Source of the DNA: Promethearchaeota archaeon | GTDB taxonomy: Archaea > Asgardarchaeota > Lokiarchaeia > Sigyniarchaeales > SOKP01 | Assembly: GCA_019058445.1 (NCBI GenBank) | Contig: JAHPZA010000005.1 | Span: 32,001 to 96,000, forward strand | Reading direction: 5' to 3' | DNA: 64,000 nt | In this document: positions 26,287 through 33,949 of the stretch, one piece after another | Numbering within the stretch: position 1 is the stretch's first letter | Layout: every line of letters starts with the position of its first letter | Position numbers and translations under genes: made by a program | The notes under the pieces: model-generated | Told to the model about the DNA's origin: nothing | The model's input: only the letters and a program-made list of their open reading frames with translations | Database searches by the model: none

Positions 26287-26553
26287 TTAGGAGCTTACCA
26301 ATCGAAATAATAAGGCGCCATGAGGAATGTAGAATTCGTCTTTTCTCTTTATCACGACGGTATGAAAATACTCCGCCAGTCCGAGAAACCCTCTTATCAC
26401 ACTCTCGTCTTCTTCAAATTTAAATGTTATATTTGATATTGCCGATCCTGTATTAAAGGCGACCTTCTCATAAACACGCTCATCGATTAAGGGAATTTTT
26501 AATTCATTGACGATTTCATAAACTCGCTTAATAAATAATTCTTTTTTAGCCAT
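26287..26553 (-). CDS. Small hypothetical protein (88 aa)
   Basis: Clean ORF with an upstream GTGATGTGA motif before the ATG; no recognised domain. Confidence 0.7.
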   Translation of the reverse strand: MAKKELFIKRVYEIVNELKIPLIDERVYEKVAFNTGSAISNITFKFEEDESVIRGFLGLAEYFHTVVIKRKDEFYIPHGALLFRLVSS

Positions 26554-28733: not shown

Positions 28734-28787
28734 ACTATAATTTTAATATAGTCAGAAAATACTATAATTTTAATATAGTCAGAAAAT
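28734..28787. promoter_or_regulatory. Perfect 27-bp tandem duplication ACTATAATTTTAATATAGTCAGAAAAT x2, each copy containing the palindrome ACTATA-N7-TATAGT
   Basis: Copies at 28734-28760 and 28761-28787 in the divergent intergenic region between the corrinoid gene and the Pro-rich gene. The repeat is read directly; the regulatory role is inferred. Confidence 0.6.
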
Positions 28788-28849: not shown

Positions 28850-29623
28850 GTGGTTTCAAAGGAACAGAAGAAGTTAAATCGTGTGATGAATTTTCTAAAA
28901 AAAGGTTTATCCGGTTTAGCAGATGAGTTAGAAGGTACAATTAAAGGAATAAATGAATTCTTAGACTCCCTTCAAAAAGCTCAAAAAGATTTAAAGGGAG
29001 TCGAATCTGAAGAAGAAGTTGTTACTGTAAGCACTTCCTCTACGAAAATTGCTACTCCCAGTCCTGAGACTGCAAAAACTGCAGCTGCAAGTACGTTATT
29101 TAGTTTATTGAGCGGAACTGGAGGTGAAGCAGCTCCAGGCTCCGCACCAGTAGCAGCTGCTGCTTCAGGTGGACTTCCTAAAACGCCTTCAGGCGGTGGA
29201 CCTCCTAAAGCACCTTCAGGCGGTGGGCCTCCAAAGGCACCTCCAGGCGGTGGGCCTCCAAAGGCACCTTCAGGCGGTGGGCCTCCAAAGGCACCATCAG
29301 GCGGTGGGCCTCCAAAGGCACCATCAGGCGGTGGACCTCCAAAGGCACCATCAGGCGGTGGGCCTCCAAAGGCACCATCAAGTGGGTTACCTCCGGCTCC
29401 AAAACTTCCTCCTGCCCCTGGAACAGGCGCCCCTCCTACAGCACCAGGTGGCGTGAAACCGCCAGCTTTTGCAAAAAGAGCAGGACCTCCTGGAGCTCCA
29501 GGAGCACCCCCCGGTGGAGCAGCCCCAGCAGTAGCAGCTCAACCTGGCGGAGGTTTGAGTTCACTTAGAGATGAAATGTTGGATGAATTAAATCGTCTAA
29601 AGAAAATTATGCGTGGAGAATAA
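28850..29623 (+). CDS. Pro/Gly-rich protein with N-terminal coiled coil and C-terminal amphipathic helix (candidate actin regulator)
   Basis: GTG start after GAGGA. Helical N-terminus, 7x GGGPPKAP(S/P), further PPAP/PPGAP tracts, C-terminus SLRDEMLDELNRLKKIMRGE. Confidence 0.85.
   Translation: MVSKEQKKLNRVMNFLKKGLSGLADELEGTIKGINEFLDSLQKAQKDLKGVESEEEVVTVSTSSTKIATPSPETAKTAAASTLFSLLSGTGGEAAPGSAPVAAAASGGLPKTPSGGGPPKAPSGGGPPKAPPGGGPPKAPSGGGPPKAPSGGGPPKAPSGGGPPKAPSGGGPPKAPSSGLPPAPKLPPAPGTGAPPTAPGGVKPPAFAKRAGPPGAPGAPPGGAAPAVAAQPGGGLSSLRDEMLDELNRLKKIMRGE
29192..29380 (+). repeat. Coding minisatellite, 7 x 27 bp (GGCGGTGGRCCTCCWAARGCACCWYCA), plus a degenerate unit at 29165-29191
   Basis: Read directly; encodes GGGPPKAPS repeats with synonymous variation between units. 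Confidence 0.95.
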
Positions 29624-29790
29624 GAGTTTTAACAAAACATTACTTTCTTTTCCTATATCTGTTCAATTTTATTGTTACAATATATAAAGTATTTTAAATT
29701 CAATTTCTTTGTATAAAATTAAATAGAAAAATATGAATTATATAATCAAAGTACATTTTTATTTTAAATAGATTTAAGTGATTAAATTTT

Positions 29791-30909
29791 ATGGGTAATC
29801 TTACTGTTGTTTTAGATATTGGTCAATTTTCGTCTAAAGCGGGTTTCGCAGGTGAAGATTTCCCATCTCAGGTATTTTTTACCATTGTTGGTAAACCTAA
29901 ATATCATAATCTTGATGCGCAATATGGTGGAGGAGCCGAACAGGAAGTTTATGTAGGAGAGGAGATTCAATCTCTTGGACTTTATAAAATTACCTCACCA
30001 ATTAATAAAGGAAAAATAATTGATTGGAGTTATTTCGAAAAGATTTTGGACTATATTTTTTATAATTTAAGAGTTGATCATACTTTAGTAAACGTATTAT
30101 TTGCTATTCATCCATTGTTTCCTAAAAAAGATCTCCAAAAAATATTCGAATTGTTTTTAGAGCATTATCAATGTATGGGATTTTATCCTGTTTTAGACTC
30201 TTTATGTACTCTTTATTCTGGTGGATTTCAAACAGGATTAATTATAGAAATTGGAGATAGTAGTACAAGAATCGTACCTATTTATAATGGATATAAAATA
30301 GATCATGCAATTAAAATTTTAGAAATTGGTGGAAGAGCTCTTACCCGGTATATGGAAACTCTTTTAGGATCCATAGGGTTTGCTTCTGATTCATCAATAA
30401 GGAGAGAATTAGTTCGAGTTTTAAAAGAAAAAGCATGTTTTGTTTCTTTGGATTATAAGGAAGATCTGAAAAGAAGTGAAGAATATACCAAACAATATTC
30501 ATTACCCGATGGGGCGACTATTTCTTTATCCAAAGAAAGATTCATTCTTCCGGAAGCTCTATTCAATCCCTCCTTAATAAATTTAGAACATTATTCATTA
30601 CCAGAAGCAATAATGGATGTAATTGAATTATGTGATGTTGATATTAGGGCTGAATTGTTAAATAATATCTTTTTGTCAGGAGGTTCTTCTATGTTTCCAA
30701 ATCTTAAAAATAGAATATATCAGGAGCTTGAACTCTTGATGGCAAGAAAAAAAATAGACAATCAAGGTATAAAAATTATTGCCCCAAGAGAGAGAACTTT
30801 TTCGGTGTGGGTTGGAGGATCCATTTTATCGATGATCCCGGAATTTTCTGACAATTGGATCACTCGGGCGAAATATTATAAGGACGGCATTCCAGAAGAC
30901 TTTATATGA
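29791..30909 (+). CDS. Actin-family protein (divergent Asgard actin-related protein)
   Basis: VVLDIG..SKAGFAGED.P (phosphate 1), EIGDSSTRIVPIYNGY (phosphate 2), LKEKACFV, YSLPDG, ERF..PEALFNP, CDVDIR, LSGGSSMFP and ER.FSVWVGGSILS. Confidence 0.96.
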   Translation: MGNLTVVLDIGQFSSKAGFAGEDFPSQVFFTIVGKPKYHNLDAQYGGGAEQEVYVGEEIQSLGLYKITSPINKGKIIDWSYFEKILDYIFYNLRVDHTLVNVLFAIHPLFPKKDLQKIFELFLEHYQCMGFYPVLDSLCTLYSGGFQTGLIIEIGDSSTRIVPIYNGYKIDHAIKILEIGGRALTRYMETLLGSIGFASDSSIRRELVRVLKEKACFVSLDYKEDLKRSEEYTKQYSLPDGATISLSKERFILPEALFNPSLINLEHYSLPEAIMDVIELCDVDIRAELLNNIFLSGGSSMFPNLKNRIYQELELLMARKKIDNQGIKIIAPRERTFSVWVGGSILSMIPEFSDNWITRAKYYKDGIPEDFI

Positions 30910-31032: not shown

Positions 31033-31401
31033 TTGGTGTGTTATTTGGAAGAACTTCCTGAAAAAAGTTTCAATAAACAAAGTATGATGAGTAAATACGA
31101 TTTATTTAACAAAATCAAGGGAATTAATACTCCTGTAAAAAGCGATATTTTGATTGCTCTCTTGGATGGAGAATATCATTCTGAGACAGAATTAATCAGA
31201 TTAGCAAAAAAAAGGGGTACAAATTATCTTGGAGCAGTAACTTTAGGAACCATGGTCAATTCATTGAATCATTTATTAAAAAGTAATTATGTAGAGAAAC
31301 AATTTGTAAATGGTGAAATGAATTATAAAATCTCCGATAATTATGTAGGCCTTACGCGAGCAGCATATAATAACTGGCAGCATAAAGCATTTAAATATTA
31401 A
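31033..31401 (+). CDS. Winged-helix-like protein, paralogue 1
   Basis: DILIALLDG..HSETELIR, a helix, then the YVEKQ...YKIS wing. The true start may be the ATG at 31084. Confidence 0.65.
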   Translation: MVCYLEELPEKSFNKQSMMSKYDLFNKIKGINTPVKSDILIALLDGEYHSETELIRLAKKRGTNYLGAVTLGTMVNSLNHLLKSNYVEKQFVNGEMNYKISDNYVGLTRAAYNNWQHKAFKY

Positions 31402-31406
31402 GGGGA

Positions 31407-31775
31407 ATGATTTTGGATAAATTAGGAAAAGAATTTAATATTTCTACACTTATGAAAATCGTCTTTAAACCAGAATATTCCAATATGTTCAATAAGATCA
31501 CTAATATAAATGCTCCTGTAAAAAATGACATCCTAATAACTCTTTTAGATGGGAAATACCATTCTCAAACCGAAATTATAAGACTCATTAAAAAAAAACA
31601 TCAATATCTCGGTCCAATAACTCTTACGACCATGATAGAATCTTTGAATAGTCGCACAAAAAATAATTACTTAGTAAAAAAGATTGTAAATGGAAGAATT
31701 TACTATAAAATCTCTGATAATTATGTTGGCCTCACAAAGGCTGCTTTTACAAAATTCAGGTTTGCAAATATTTGA
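31407..31775 (+). CDS. Winged-helix-like protein, paralogue 2
   Basis: Clearly homologous to 31033-31401 (PVK.DILI.LLDG.YHS.TE.IR; YKISDNYVGLT.AA); GGGGA upstream of the ATG. Confidence 0.68.
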   Translation: MILDKLGKEFNISTLMKIVFKPEYSNMFNKITNINAPVKNDILITLLDGKYHSQTEIIRLIKKKHQYLGPITLTTMIESLNSRTKNNYLVKKIVNGRIYYKISDNYVGLTKAAFTKFRFANI

Positions 31776-31777
31776 GA

Positions 31778-33949
31778 TTATCGCTTAACACATTTATTAT
31801 TTACTATTTTATAATTCTCACAGCTAGAGCAAAAGCCTTTTGTAGTCTTACTGCTTAGTCCTTCAGCCCAACACTTCGGGCACATATAATATGAAAATTT
31901 GTTGTTCCCCTTTTTTGTGGAAACCATAAAAATATTAAAATTACAGATTGAACAAGTAGAATTCAATAATTTCAACCGACCCCGTTTAGGTAATGGCAAA
32001 TATTTTTTGCATGATTCATCTGAACATACAAGAAATCTCTTTCCCTTTAAATTAATATATTTCATAGGGACTTTTTTACAAAATGGACAATAAGATGAGG
32101 TTAATGGAAATTCCTTTTTCGGTTTTGGACTCAGTTCACTATTTTGAACCTTATAATCTTCGGCATTTTTAATCAATTCTTGCTTATTGGCAAGAAATTT
32201 ATCAAATAAAGTTAAGAAGTCTTTTTTAACATCCTCAATAACCGCAAGCATTTCCCGTTTTTCATCCTTTATCAATTCAAGTTGAGATTCAACTTCGTGG
32301 GTAAAATTAGGTTTTAGAAAAGGTAGCCATACTTTTATCAAATTTTCGATTAGAAAAGAACCTAGATTTGAAATAATGTATTTCGTTCCACTTTTATATA
32401 TCACTTTTCTCTGTTTCATGATCTCTATAATTGCGGGTCTAGTAGATTTTGTTCCCAATCCATGCTTTTCCATTAGTTTAAGAAGGGTGGTATCTGTATA
32501 ATGAGGAGGAGGCTTAGTCTCTTTTTCGTTATACTCAATACTTTTAACAGGAATTTTATCACCACCAATCTGTATTTCTGTATCATACTTTGGTCTTAAA
32601 AAGGGTGCAATTGTAAAAAAGCCAGAATCTACTAATGAAACAATCTGGGCTTTAAAGGGTTCATCTTTTATTAAGAGATCCAAATCTTGTTTAGATTCGG
32701 TGGCGCTTTCTCCAAAAAGTGCTAGATAATGTCTTGCGAGTAGGTCATAAATTTGTTTTTGAAGATTATTTTTTAATCGGGTGCTACTTAGTTCTAAACT
32801 AAATAGGGGTGAGATAGGAGGATGATCTCCAGCATCTTTTTTACCTTTAGTGGGTTTAAATCTTTTCTTTTTAATCAAATCTTGTGTATAATTTCCATAT
32901 TCAGAATGAGTTTTGAATAATTCAATTAGATCTCTATGGGGAAAGTCTGGTTTGTAAACATCACTGTCAGTTCTCGGATAGGTGATAATTTGATCTAAAT
33001 ATAACTGGTTCATAACGCTTAACGCTGTGTTCGCATTAATCTTTAAATTTTTTGTGAGTAAAATAAGTGCTTTATTAGTGTTTAATGGTGCTGGAGGTTT
33101 TCTCTTTACTATATTTTTGTTGAAATTTTCTATAAACGCTATTTTTTCATTCTTAATCTTACCATAAATATCCTTAGCTTTTACCATATCCTCTTTTTTG
33201 AAAGGATTTTTCTTATGATACGCTTTGAAAGTTGATGTTTCAGAAATTAAATTAGCGTCTATTGTAACATATTTTTCTGGAACAAAATCTATAATTTCCT
33301 TTTCTCTTAGATATAATAAATATAGTGCTGAAGTCTGTACTCGTCCTATTGAAGTAAAGGTGACTTTAAATTTTAATAATAATGGTTTCAATGTATTTGT
33401 TATTTCCCTTGTGGCAGAGAACCCAATAATTGCATCAAGTAATGCTCTTGCCTCACCAGCTTCAGCCCAGCTTAATTTGGGTTTAATTAAATTTTGAAAT
33501 TTTGTTTGTATCTCATTTTTCTGCAATGAACTTAGCCACAATTGAGATACCTTGATATTTGATTTCATTTTTCTTACATAAGGAAGAGCATCAAAAAATC
33601 CTATATTGCATCCTTCAACATCGGCATCTGTGGCGATTATTACCTCATGGCATAATTTTCCAAATTCTTTAAGCGCTGTGATATAAGGCGATGCATAACT
33701 TTTTGGCACTTTTTTAATGGCATCTGAATCCGTTATAATATTTCGAGGATTGGTTCTGCTCCAGCTTTTATATTTATCGGTATTTCGATGTTCAAGAATA
33801 TGTCCTCTAAGAGGTAATACAAAAATATCTTTTGAATAAACGTGATAAATACTAATATTTTTATTTTTTTTTATGATTTTAATAGGACCTAATGCTTCCG
33901 CAATTGCCTTTGCTGCTTTATTTTTCTCGGCAATTAACAATGTTGGCAT
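31778..33949 (-). CDS. topA: Type IA DNA topoisomerase (topoisomerase III type) with C-terminal Zn-binding domain
   Basis: TOPRIM motifs IAEK and ATDADVEG, SIGRVQT, active site ITYPRTDS, DHPPISP, GLGTKSTR and C-terminal CxxC pairs. Confidence 0.93.
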   Translation of the reverse strand: MPTLLIAEKNKAAKAIAEALGPIKIIKKNKNISIYHVYSKDIFVLPLRGHILEHRNTDKYKSWSRTNPRNIITDSDAIKKVPKSYASPYITALKEFGKLCHEVIIATDADVEGCNIGFFDALPYVRKMKSNIKVSQLWLSSLQKNEIQTKFQNLIKPKLSWAEAGEARALLDAIIGFSATREITNTLKPLLLKFKVTFTSIGRVQTSALYLLYLREKEIIDFVPEKYVTIDANLISETSTFKAYHKKNPFKKEDMVKAKDIYGKIKNEKIAFIENFNKNIVKRKPPAPLNTNKALILLTKNLKINANTALSVMNQLYLDQIITYPRTDSDVYKPDFPHRDLIELFKTHSEYGNYTQDLIKKKRFKPTKGKKDAGDHPPISPLFSLELSSTRLKNNLQKQIYDLLARHYLALFGESATESKQDLDLLIKDEPFKAQIVSLVDSGFFTIAPFLRPKYDTEIQIGGDKIPVKSIEYNEKETKPPPHYTDTTLLKLMEKHGLGTKSTRPAIIEIMKQRKVIYKSGTKYIISNLGSFLIENLIKVWLPFLKPNFTHEVESQLELIKDEKREMLAVIEDVKKDFLTLFDKFLANKQELIKNAEDYKVQNSELSPKPKKEFPLTSSYCPFCKKVPMKYINLKGKRFLVCSDESCKKYLPLPKRGRLKLLNSTCSICNFNIFMVSTKKGNNKFSYYMCPKCWAEGLSSKTTKGFCSSCENYKIVNNKCVKR

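What the first reader, a model, noticed from the sequence alone, without database searches (positions are those of the whole stretch)
29791..30909. Actin homologue with substituted nucleotide-binding and hydrolysis residues (ARP-like rather than a filament actin)
By-eye alignment to actin gives: DNGSG to DIGQF (S14Q, G15F), catalytic Q137 to D (YPVLDSL), D154 to E, G158 to S, H161 to R, the H73 loop PIEHG to PINKG, TEAP to AIHP, a Gly-rich D-loop (HNLDAQYGGGAEQ) and no C-terminal CF. Established: Q137 and H161 drive polymerisation-coupled ATP hydrolysis. Inference: this is a specialised paralogue (nucleator, cap or scaffold) distinct from the conserved Lokiactin.
Basis: partly seen in the sequence, partly recalled or inferred. 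Interest (0 to 1): 0.7.

Follow-up and report, generated by a model that had tools for sequence, protein, structure and literature searches.

The report
Lokiactin-derived actin paralogue, catalytic site rewired
This gene encodes a real, well-conserved actin-fold protein, found in only one order of Lokiarchaeia, whose ATP-hydrolysis residues have been replaced; it is the counterpart of an uncharacterised "ARP" already listed for the cultured Lokiarchaeum ossiferum, so it is a known kind of gene whose function can now be tested.

Summary
The genome also has two canonical Lokiactins, only 41% identical to it.

I call the family ARPx. The substitutions are fixed family traits: S14Q/E, G15F/Y, G158S/A and H161R across the whole clade, and Q137 to D or G. 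The sister GTDB family also loses D157.

ARPx is not Asgard-wide. Orthologues occur only in the window's own GTDB order. MAG labels such as "Thor" or "Heimdall" on close hits conflict with GTDB placement. The Ca. L. ossiferum orthologue carries the published RT-qPCR primer for UYP44126.1, one of three "ARPs" reported in 2022.

In trees ARPx is a 100%-supported clade on a very long stem. It groups with Lokiactins against eukaryote-type actins, and descent from the order's own Lokiactin is not rejected.

ARPx evolves 6-20 times faster than Lokiactin. Its nucleotide site and barbed-end cleft are its best-conserved parts; the D-loop and lateral-contact regions are its least conserved.

Best reading (0.55): a non-hydrolysing accessory actin fold, not the main filament.

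The Pro-rich "WH2-like" neighbour is linked only within one family and also occurs in lineages without ARPx.

First readers of this scan noted the same family in other genomes.

The parts
29791..30909 (+). ARPx coding sequence: 372-aa actin-fold protein, orthologue of Ca. L. ossiferum UYP44126.1
   Evidence: ORF. Pfam Actin, E 4e-85. AF2 pLDDT 93.5, pTM 0.90. Foldseek TM 0.90 to conventional actins. Orthology by clade and exact published primer.
29815..29838 (+). Phosphate-1 loop, residues 9-16, DIGQFSSK (actin D11-K18): N12I, S14Q, G15F, M16S
   Evidence: Alignments. Q in 116/120 and F in 118/120 relatives. Q/E and F/Y(S) across both GTDB families. Q was not seen at this position in 43 other actin-family representatives.
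29902..29946 (+). D-loop region, residues 38-52: Gly-rich, 3 residues longer than actin's, low model confidence
   Evidence: pLDDT <50 at residues 44-48. Least conserved stretch of the family: mean 0.50 against 0.71 overall, with variable length.
30196..30198 (+). Asp136, the equivalent of actin's catalytic Gln137
   Evidence: D in 119/120 close relatives. D in family f1 and genus g11; G in genera g10, g12 and g13, including the L. ossiferum orthologue.
30247..30270 (+). Phosphate-2 loop, residues 153-160, EIGDSSTR (actin D154-H161): D154E, G158S, V159S, H161R
   Evidence: R161 is invariant in all 18 clade members. D157 is kept in f1 but is A or S in all f2 orthologues.
30868..30906 (+). Family-specific C-terminal tail ...YY..G[IL].E[DE].[LFI] replacing Lokiactin's ...GPQVIHRCF
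   Evidence: The tail is shared by f1 and f2 orthologues.
29762..29770 (+). TATA-like TTTTAAATA about 25 nt upstream of the ATG. This suggests the gene has its own promoter and a short or absent leader (inference only).
   Evidence: Sequence read. The 167-nt AT-rich gap after the upstream gene contains T-runs. No transcript data.
28850..29623 (+). Upstream neighbour PRO (257 aa): helical N-terminus, AKTAAASTLFSLLSG motif, Pro-rich repeats, and an invariant C-terminal helix ending LKKIMRGE
   Evidence: Upstream of ARPx on the same strand in all 13 sampled f1 loci. Not adjacent in f2, and present in lineages without ARPx. No Pfam hit.
31033..31401 (+). Downstream neighbour P122a, a small winged-helix-like protein
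   Evidence: A homologue lies immediately downstream of ARPx in 12 of 13 sampled f1 loci; one of these is truncated, and the remaining locus (L013) showed none. AF2 pLDDT 73.6 with H-H-H-beta-beta-H topology. Only weak Foldseek matches (E about 1e-2, TM 0.5-0.6) to ArsR/MarR/PadR, Sso10a, AspA and TubR.
31407..31775 (+). P122b, a tandem paralogue of P122a (55% identical), 5 nt downstream of it
26290..26553 (-). P90: an 88-aa protein that accompanies PRO across Asgard lineages. In this window two methyltransferase-system genes separate it from PRO.
   Evidence: tblastn, 81% identity to the L007 copy. Found near PRO in families f1, f2, f4, f5 and f14.

Best explanation
ARPx is a lineage-restricted actin-related protein. 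It most likely arose by duplication of Lokiactin in, or before, the ancestor of one Lokiarchaeial order (the order that contains Ca. Lokiarchaeum ossiferum) and then diverged fast. It keeps the complete actin fold without insertions, the adenine/ribose side of the nucleotide pocket, and a hydrophobic barbed-end cleft. Both phosphate loops and both residues that drive polymerisation-coupled hydrolysis (Q137, H161) have been replaced.

I infer four things:
1. It may still hold a nucleotide, but it does not run the actin ATPase cycle.
2. It is not the cell's main dynamic filament.
3. It acts stoichiometrically as an accessory actin-fold subunit that engages a partner through its conserved barbed-end face. 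The partner would be either the pointed end or D-loop of Lokiactin (a cap or seed) or an amphipathic helix of a regulator.
4. Its partners differ between lineages: a Pro-rich protein plus a winged-helix protein in the window's family, and a small Ras-like GTPase in the L. ossiferum family.

Shown here: identity, fold, residue states, distribution, orthology, relative rates and gene neighbourhoods. Inferred: loss of hydrolysis, lack of polymerisation, and the binding mode.
For: - Actin family with a full-length, high-confidence actin fold and no Arp-type insertions.
- Two canonical Lokiactins exist elsewhere in the genome. ARPx is 41% identical to them.
- Clade-wide substitutions: S14Q/E, G15F/Y, G158S/A, V159S/N and H161R. 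Q137 becomes D or G. D157 becomes A/S in all f2 orthologues. K18, R210, K213, E214, G301, G302 and R335 are kept. That Q137 and H161 position the attacking water in F-actin is established actin biochemistry.
- Purifying selection: at least 80 species-level genomes carry intact 71-95% identical orthologues.
- Across the same genome pairs ARPx changes 6-20 times faster than Lokiactin: 77/63/47/55% identity against 99/96/91/88%. It changes more slowly than its neighbours; the topoisomerase is 55-62% identical.
- Region-wise conservation within the clade: nucleotide site 0.84 and barbed-end cleft 0.81, against 0.71 overall. D-loop 0.50, hydrophobic plug 0.57, lateral contacts 0.48.
- Restricted to one GTDB order. 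It groups 100/100 with Lokiactins against eukaryote-type actins, and sisterhood to the order's own Lokiactins is not rejected (p-AU 0.74).
- The L. ossiferum orthologue is UYP44126.1. The paper's RT-qPCR found Lokiactin expression 'severalfold higher' than that of the other homologues (PMC9834061).
Against: - No biochemical data exist for any member.
- In this protein and its family, D136 and E153 are carboxylates and D157 is kept. Many ASKHA ATPases (MreB, ParM, Hsp70; from memory) use a Glu or Asp as the catalytic base, so hydrolysis could persist by another route.
- The nucleotide site is the best-conserved region, which suits an active site as well as a structural one.
- The protein is actin-sized with no insertion blocking polymer contacts, so polymerisation or co-polymerisation with Lokiactin is not excluded.
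- Buried cleft residues are expected to be more conserved than surface loops, so the region-wise contrast is only suggestive.
- The actin-residue ranges used for the regions come from memory of F-actin structures.
Confidence: 0.55

Rival explanations
1. ARPx forms its own non-canonical filament and still hydrolyses ATP, using the acidic residues at 137/154 as bacterial actins do. In the window's family it works with the downstream winged-helix protein(s) as a DNA adaptor, like the ParM-ParR pair, to move or position DNA.
For: - D136, E153 and D156 are carboxylates in f1.
- The nucleotide site is the most conserved region.
- It is actin-sized with no insertions.
- The gene order, actin-like gene followed by a small winged-helix gene, holds in 12 of 13 sampled f1 loci.
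- The weak Foldseek matches of P122 include the plasmid centromere binders AspA and TubR.
Against: - The f2 orthologues, including L. ossiferum's, have Q137G and D157A/S, and no winged-helix gene lies next to them.
- The D-loop and lateral-contact regions are the least conserved parts.
- P122's structural matches are weak (E about 1e-2) and are mostly ordinary transcription regulators.
- No centromere-like repeat array was seen next to the genes. The only repeat is a two-copy 27-bp duplication upstream of PRO.
Confidence: 0.18
2. ARPx and the upstream Pro-rich protein form an archaeal nucleation-promoting-factor/Arp-type module. The Pro-rich repeats recruit profilin-Lokiactin, and the C-terminal WH2-like helix (...LRDEMLDELNRLKKI...) docks in the barbed-end cleft of ARPx or Lokiactin to seed filaments.
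For: - PRO lies upstream of ARPx on the same strand in all 13 sampled f1 loci, spanning 8 sampled genera.
- Its C-terminal 25 residues are nearly invariant, while the Pro-rich middle varies.
- The ARPx barbed-end cleft is well conserved and hydrophobic.
- The helix-plus-LKK[IV] pattern resembles WH2 (my recollection of the consensus).
Against: - PRO is not adjacent to ARPx in f2; it lies 44-70 kb away.
- Full-length PRO homologues occur in families f4, f5 and f14, which lack ARPx. There, and in f1 and f2, PRO sits near a different conserved 88-96-aa protein.
- There is no Pfam WH2 hit, nor any hit above threshold.
- Loki and Odin profilins were reported not to bind VASP polyproline (as summarised in PMC8410842).
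Confidence: 0.15
3. ARPx is a decaying, functionless duplicate of Lokiactin.
For: Catalytic residues are lost, and it evolves much faster than Lokiactin.
Against: - Intact full-length ORFs in at least 80 species-level genomes at 71-95% identity.
- 97 invariant columns across two GTDB families.
- It is more conserved than the neighbouring topoisomerase.
- The L. ossiferum orthologue was among the four homologues whose transcripts were quantified by RT-qPCR (PMC9834061).
Confidence: 0.02

Closest known systems
Ca. Lokiarchaeum ossiferum actin homologue UYP44126.1, one of three 'ARPs' in Rodrigues-Oliveira et al. 2022, Nature (PMC9834061)
   Same: Orthologue. It lies in the same 100%-supported clade and is 50% identical over the full length. 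It has the same phosphate-1 motif (DMGQFSTK) and R161. The published 82F RT-qPCR primer matches exactly inside the gene in the 6.04-Mb single-contig genome G309.
   Different: The L. ossiferum protein belongs to the sister GTDB family and is more degenerate at the catalytic site (Q137G, D157S). Its gene sits behind a small Ras-like GTPase rather than behind the Pro-rich protein. The paper gives a tree position and a transcript level but no function.
Lokiactin, the conserved Asgard filament actin
   Same: Same fold and length. ARPx groups with Lokiactins (100/100) against eukaryote-type actins. Descent from the order's own Lokiactin is not rejected. K18, K213, E214, G301/G302 and much of the barbed-end cleft are shared.
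   Different: 41% identity. DNGTG, Q137, G158, H161, H73 and the C-terminal HRCF are all replaced. The D-loop and plug differ. ARPx evolves 6-20 times faster and is restricted to one order, whereas Lokiactin is found in nearly all Asgard genomes searched.
Eukaryotic actin-related proteins (Arp1-Arp10), especially nuclear Arps with non-canonical nucleotide sites
   Same: Both are divergent actin-fold paralogues with altered catalytic residues that coexist with a conserved filament actin. From memory, unverified here: Arp4/BAF53 also has an aromatic residue at the G15 position and binds ATP without cycling.
   Different: ARPx has no Arp-type insertions. Its closest solved structures are conventional actins (TM 0.90), not Arps. 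It groups with Lokiactins in the reduced tree.
ParM/ParR (type II plasmid segregation)
   Same: An actin-fold gene is followed by a small putative DNA-binding protein gene. An acidic residue sits at the catalytic-base position, as I recall for ParM and MreB.
   Different: ARPx is a eukaryote-type actin (Pfam Actin at 286 bits; MreB_Mbl at only 16.8 bits, below its cut-off). The adaptor candidate is a winged helix, not a ribbon-helix-helix. No centromere repeats were found. The linkage is absent in the sister family.
WASP/VASP-type factors with poly-Pro plus WH2 (for the neighbour PRO)
   Same: Both have Pro-rich repeats followed by a short amphipathic helix and an LKK[IV] motif at the C-terminus.
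   Different: PRO has no Pfam WH2 hit. It has no EVH1, GBD or acidic-Trp tail. The family also exists in Asgard lineages without ARPx.

Membership tests
Actin family (Pfam PF00022) | Full-length match above the curated cut-off | tested here: met
   286.2 bits against a cut-off of 27, residues 5-366 on profile positions 6-401 of 410.
Actin family (Pfam PF00022) | Four-subdomain actin fold | tested here: met
   AF2 pLDDT 93.5, pTM 0.90. Foldseek TM 0.89-0.93 to many actin structures.
Lokiactin (orthologue group) | High identity to Lokiactins of related genomes (88-99% within this order) | tested here: not met
   41% identity to both own-genome Lokiactins. Lokiactin orthologues are 88-99% identical across the same genomes.
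Lokiactin (orthologue group) | Canonical catalytic and phosphate residues: DNG[ST]G, Q137, D154/D157/G158, H161 | tested here: not met
   The protein has DIGQF, D137, E154, S158 and R161.
Lokiactin (orthologue group) | Presence across Asgard lineages | tested here: not met
   Orthologues of 47% identity or more occur only in GTDB families f1 and f2 of one order. Elsewhere the best hit is a Lokiactin at 41-46%.
Asgard ARP group containing L. ossiferum UYP44126.1 | Same clade and best match in the L. ossiferum genome | tested here: met
   It is the best hit in G309 (50% identity, E 1e-118). The published primer matches exactly inside that gene. The clade has 100% support.
Eukaryotic Arp2/Arp3 (Arp2/3 complex) | Orthology to Arp2 or Arp3, with their characteristic insertions | tested here: inconclusive
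   There are no insertions relative to actin, and the top structural matches are conventional actins. No named Arp2 or Arp3 sequences were available for a tree.
Eukaryotic Arp2/Arp3 (Arp2/3 complex) | Accompanying ARPC1-5 subunits | not tested
ParM/ParR-type segregation pair | Polymerising ATPase with an intact catalytic site | not testable with these tools
   The residue pattern argues against this in f2 (Q137G, D157A/S) and leaves it open in f1.
ParM/ParR-type segregation pair | Adjacent DNA-binding adaptor plus a centromere repeat array | tested here: inconclusive
   A winged-helix-like neighbour is present in f1 only. No repeat array was found apart from a two-copy 27-bp duplication upstream of PRO.
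WH2 domain (for neighbour PRO) | Match to the Pfam WH2 profile | tested here: not met
   The window's PRO had no Pfam family at E <= 0.1, and two homologues had none at E <= 1 other than weak coiled-coil-type hits. Short-motif profiles are insensitive.
WH2 domain (for neighbour PRO) | Binding to the barbed-end cleft of an actin | not testable with these tools
   Needs a binding assay or a solved complex.

The most novel reading that the evidence does not exclude
ARPx is a hydrolysis-dead actin fold that, together with lineage-specific partners (the Pro-rich/LKKI-helix protein in one family, a Ras-like GTPase in the other), forms an archaeal filament-seeding or pointed-end-capping module for Lokiactin. 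Such a module would have evolved independently of eukaryotic Arp2/3: a convergent 'Arp plus activator' system in the closest cultured relatives of eukaryotes.
Probability: 0.12. Interest if true: 0.85.

Novelty: new member of a known kind. Interest (0 to 1): 0.45.

Why it matters
Asgard archaea carry several actin paralogues, but only Lokiactin has been seen as a filament. Recent work on Lokiactin regulation names profilins, gelsolins, an ARF GTPase and BAR proteins, and does not mention the ARPs (PMC13716822).

This family is well defined. It is conserved in more than 80 species-level genomes. Its catalytic site is remodelled in a graded way between two families. It is present in the cultured Ca. 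L. ossiferum, and probably in the closed 4.36-Mb genome of the same family.

This gives a concrete, testable candidate for an archaeal actin-fold regulator. It is also a natural experiment on what an actin fold does once polymerisation-coupled hydrolysis is removed.

The result also corrects a trap. Submitter labels made the family look Asgard-wide, but by GTDB placement it belongs to a single order.

Tried and rejected
- **Complex prediction.** ARPx with PRO residues 205-257 gave no verdict (ipSAE 0.00; controls were not run). This is neither support nor evidence against binding.
- **The look-up of sequencing runs.** No RNA holder was listed. The only strong DNA holder is a sediment metagenome that may be the source of this DNA.
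- **Asgard-wide reading.** I first read the family as Asgard-wide because hits at 73-77% identity were labelled Thor-, Heimdall-, Hod-, Odin- or Hermodarchaeota. I rejected this. Whole-genome searches place all orthologues in one GTDB order. One 'Hodarchaeota' MAG is in the window's own GTDB genus with a 99% identical Lokiactin.
- **Profile and Atlas searches of the neighbours.** Pfam found nothing above threshold for PRO, P122 or the 88-96-aa protein. The only PRO-family hit was CCDC53 (WASH subunit) at E 0.012, below its cut-off, on an Odin-type homologue. The ESM Atlas returned only 'hypothetical protein' clusters of Promethearchaeota.
- **Naming tree neighbours.** The listing of cluster members returned names for only 3 of 10 proteins, all MAG labels.
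- **Literature.** No held paper other than PMC9834061 mentions UYP44126. No supplements are held for the 2026 Lokiactin co-IP paper. A review of nuclear Arps gave no residue-level data on Arp nucleotide sites.
- **Co-absence of PRO and ARPx.** Six f1 MAGs lack both. I set this aside as uninformative, because adjacent genes drop out of assemblies together.
Full report
**1. The observation**

Window 29791-30909 (+) is an uninterrupted 372-codon ORF with an ATG start. It matches Pfam Actin over almost its whole length (286 bits, E 4e-85). Its best matches among solved structures are conventional actins and the 'HC1 actin' (E about 1e-82 to 1e-84).

- DIGQF for DNG[ST]G.
- D for Q137.
- E for D154, S for G158, S for V159 and R for H161.
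- PINKG for PIEHG.
- AIHP for TEAP.
- A Gly-rich D-loop, three residues longer than actin's.
- A ...GIPEDFI C-terminus instead of ...HRCF.

**2. Paralogues in the same genome**

The assembly is 4.6 Mb in 10 contigs. The window is contig 5, positions 32001-96000. The assembly holds six actin-family genes.

| Gene | Locus | Features |
|---|---|---|
| Lokiactin A | L001 | 381 aa; DNGTG, Q137, H161, ...HRCF |
| Lokiactin B | L002 | 384 aa; same motifs; 83% identical to A |
| ARPx | window | this gene |
| ARP | L003 | 361 aa |
| ARP with Zn-ribbon insert | L005 | 513 aa |
| Very divergent ARP | L006 | 381 aa |

. The protein studied here, which I call ARPx, is 41% identical to both Lokiactins and 28-35% identical to the other three ARPs.

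**3. The substitutions are family traits**

A word-indexed search found more than 120 full-length relatives at 71-95% identity. An exhaustive search of 50%-identity cluster representatives found one representative at 75% identity. The next hit dropped to 34% identity. The group is therefore sharply bounded.

Among the 120 relatives the unusual residues are nearly invariant: Q14 in 116, F15 in 118, D137 in 119, E154 in 118, S158 in 120, R161 in 120 and H108 in 119.

**4. Distribution, and a correction**

Several close hits carry submitter labels such as Thor-, Heimdall-, Hod-, Odin- or Hermodarchaeota. That made the family look Asgard-wide. Whole-genome searches show otherwise.

| Genomes (300 of the phylum sampled) | ARPx identity |
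|---|---|
| Window's own GTDB family f1 (most genomes) | 71-95% |
| f1, genus g4 | 62-63% |
| Sister family f2, same order | 47-55% |
| All other families | best hit 41-46% |

. The sampled 41-46% best hits from fourteen other families are canonical Lokiactins.

One 'Hodarchaeota' MAG belongs to the window's own GTDB genus, and its Lokiactin is 99% identical. The labels of that submission series are therefore unreliable. At least 80 species-level genomes carry a 71-95% identical orthologue.

**5. Link to the literature**

Rodrigues-Oliveira et al. 2022 (PMC9834061) reported four actin homologues in Ca. L. ossiferum: Lokiactin and three 'ARPs' (UYP47647.1, UYP44711.1, UYP44126.1). By RT-qPCR, Lokiactin expression was 'severalfold higher' than the others.

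A 6.04-Mb single-contig genome of family f2 (G309) carries the paper's 305F primer exactly. Its ARPx orthologue (50% identity, E 1e-118) carries the 82F primer of UYP44126.1 exactly. ARPx is therefore the orthologue of UYP44126.1.

No other held paper mentions that accession. A 2020 preprint had already sorted Asgard actins into five clades, two of them restricted to Lokiarchaeota. The 2026 paper on Lokiactin-dependent motility lists profilins, gelsolins, an ARF GTPase and BAR proteins as Lokiactin partners, and does not discuss the ARPs. The kind is known; the function is not.

**6. Catalytic-site decay is graded**

Across both families the clade shares these changes:
- S14 to Q/E.
- G15 to F/Y (S in one sequence).
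- M16 to S.
- G158 to S/A.
- V159 to S/N.
- H161 to R in all members.

Q137 is D in f1 and in genus g11. It is G in genera g10, g12 and g13, including L. ossiferum. D157 is kept in f1 but is A or S in every f2 orthologue. D154 is E in f1 and g11.

The adenine/ribose side of the pocket is kept: R210, K213, E214, G301, G302 and R335. So are D11, G13, K18 and G156.

Among 43 other actin-family representatives, Q at position 14 does not occur and R at position 161 is not among the four commonest residues.

Q137 and H161 organise the attacking water in F-actin; this is established biochemistry. The f2 pattern in particular is hard to reconcile with an actin-type ATPase. In f1 three carboxylates remain, so residual or alternative catalysis cannot be excluded.

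**7. Fold**

AlphaFold2 with a 109-row alignment gives pLDDT 93.5 and pTM 0.90. Only D-loop residues 44-48 fall below 50. Both phosphate-loop hairpins are modelled confidently.

Foldseek's best matches in the PDB are conventional actins (TM about 0.90, 38% identity). They include actin bound to gelsolin, profilin and WH2 ligands. ARPx has no Arp-type insertions.

**8. Rates and surfaces**

| Genome compared | Lokiactin identity | ARPx identity |
|---|---|---|
| G144 (same genus) | 99% | 77% |
| G147 (f1, genus g4) | 96% | 63% |
| G210 (f2) | 91% | 47% |
| G165 (f2) | 88% | 55% |

. The neighbouring topoisomerase is 55-62% identical and the other neighbours 48-64%. ARPx is under clear purifying selection but is far less constrained than the filament actin.

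Within 17 clade members, mean column conservation is 0.71 overall:

| Region | Mean conservation |
|---|---|
| Nucleotide-site positions | 0.84 |
| Barbed-end cleft | 0.81 |
| Hydrophobic plug | 0.57 |
| D-loop | 0.50 |
| Lateral contacts (110-115, 191-199) | 0.48 |

The region boundaries come from my recollection of F-actin contacts, and buried positions are expected to score higher. The pattern is therefore suggestive only. It fits a protein that uses its barbed-end face and does not maintain F-actin-type longitudinal and lateral contacts.

**9. Phylogeny**

- In a 76-row tree and an 83-row tree, ARPx (f1 plus f2) is one clade with 100% support on a stem of 1.0-1.2 substitutions per site. 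It is separate from the Lokiactins.
- In a 50-row careful tree rooted on eukaryote-type actins, ARPx plus all Lokiactins form a 100/100 clade. ARPx sits in an unresolved position among Lokiactin lineages, on a stem of 1.61.
- An AU test of 'ARPx plus this order's six Lokiactins as one clade' does not reject it (p 0.74). That constrained tree scored 20 lnL better than the quick free search.

Together with the single-order distribution, this makes a Lokiactin duplication followed by rapid divergence the most economical origin.

Two limits apply. Long-branch effects are in play. [quoted passage not shown]

**10. Neighbourhood in family f1**

The common gene order in the f1 loci where the wider flanks were read is:
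- phosphoribosyltransferase;
- an 88-aa protein (P90);
- PRO;
- sometimes a PIG-L gene;
- ARPx;
- one or two ~120-aa proteins (P122);
- a TopA-like topoisomerase on the opposite strand.

Across the 13 sampled f1 loci, PRO lies upstream in all 13, P122 downstream in 12 and the topoisomerase nearby in 8.

In this window, two methyltransferase-system genes lie between P90 (26290-26553, -) and PRO. No PIG-L gene is present.

PRO (28850-29623) has these parts:
- a conserved helical N-terminus;
- an AKTAAASTLFSLLSG motif;
- a variable Pro-rich middle, here a 27-bp coding minisatellite of 7.1 copies;
- a nearly invariant C-terminus, GGGLSSLRDEML.ELNRLKKIMRGE.

P122 models as a winged helix-turn-helix (pLDDT 73.6). 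It has only weak structural matches (E about 1e-2) to ArsR/MarR/PadR regulators, Sso10a, and the centromere binders AspA and TubR.

**11. The linkage is not universal**

In f2 genera g10, g12 and g13, ARPx follows a small Ras-like GTPase on the same strand and faces an ~80-aa gene. In g11 it follows PIG-L. PRO lies 44-70 kb away in two f2 genomes.

Full-length PRO homologues also occur in families f4, f5 (1.4-Mb genomes) and f14, all of which lack ARPx. There, and in f1 and f2, PRO lies within a few kb of the conserved 88-96-aa protein.

PRO therefore has a role that does not depend on ARPx. The PRO-ARPx adjacency is a family-level feature.

The held literature reports that Loki and Odin profilins do not bind VASP polyproline. 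That weakens a profilin-recruiting reading of PRO's repeats in these lineages.

**12. Verdict**

The protein is not a one-off. It belongs to a bounded, order-restricted family that is already listed, but not characterised, as an Asgard ARP.

The best-supported mechanism is an accessory, non-cycling actin fold derived from Lokiactin (confidence 0.55). Rival readings:
- a self-polymerising, ParM-like system (0.18);
- a module resembling a nucleation-promoting factor plus an Arp, formed with PRO (0.15).

None of these can be settled without biochemistry. That biochemistry is feasible, because an orthologue exists in a cultured organism.

Noticed in passing
window 28850-29623 (+), repeats at 29189-29380: PRO contains a 27-bp coding minisatellite (7.1 copies, 95% matches) that encodes PSGGGPPKA repeats. 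The repeat number differs even from the 95%-related genome G279, whose PRO is 246 aa against 257 aa here.
   Followed up: partly
window 28734-28787 (+): A perfect two-copy tandem duplication of a 27-bp AT-rich unit (ACTATAATTTTAATATAGTCAGAAAAT) ends 62 bp upstream of the PRO start codon. It could be an operator or promoter element. It is found nowhere else in the window.
   Followed up: partly
window 26290-26553 (-); L028 7203-7493, L029 5760-6032, L031 5879-6157, L032 8758-9036: An 88-96-aa protein of unknown family lies within a few kb of PRO in five GTDB families (f1, f2, f4, f5, f14). This is a conserved Asgard gene pair with no Pfam or Atlas annotation.
   Followed up: partly
window 31033-31401 and 31407-31775 (+): Tandem paralogues (55% identical, 5 nt apart) of a small winged-helix-like protein. 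Most related genomes have a single copy. Genus g1 has two.
   Followed up: partly
L006 644-1426 and 1477-2622 (own genome, contig 9); L117 1861-2553 and 723-1646 (G309): The most divergent ARP of the genome (L. ossiferum counterpart UYP47647.1) is preceded, in both genomes, by a 230-260-aa coiled-coil-like protein with a similar C-terminal half. It is a second ARP with its own conserved upstream partner.
   Followed up: no
L005 934-2475 (own genome, contig 10): An ARP of 513 aa has a ~130-residue insert with several CxxC zinc-ribbon motifs near the C-terminus. Frames of similar length (513-555 aa) are found in the same-order genomes G144, G147, G165, G210, G279 and G309.
   Followed up: no
L001 1495-2640 and L002 1495-2649 (own genome): The genome has two Lokiactin genes, 83% identical. 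Of the five related genomes checked, only the closest (G279) also showed a second, diverged copy.
   Followed up: partly
L016 6264-6857, L017 2348-2992, L018 4066-4656, L118 2821-3390: In genera g10, g12 and g13 of the sister family, a small Ras-like GTPase (189-214 aa) lies directly upstream of the ARPx orthologue on the same strand in four of the five loci examined. This includes the L. ossiferum genome.
   Followed up: partly
All carry 74-77% ARPx orthologues. One, labelled Hodarchaeota (L040), is on the contig that GTDB puts in the window's own genus, and close relatives from the same series share the window's synteny.
   Followed up: partly
window 31778-33949 (-): A 723-aa TopA/Top3-like topoisomerase with C-terminal Cys-rich zinc motifs was found within the sampled flanks, convergent with the ARPx cluster where adjacent, in 8 of 13 f1 loci (55-62% identity).
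   Followed up: no
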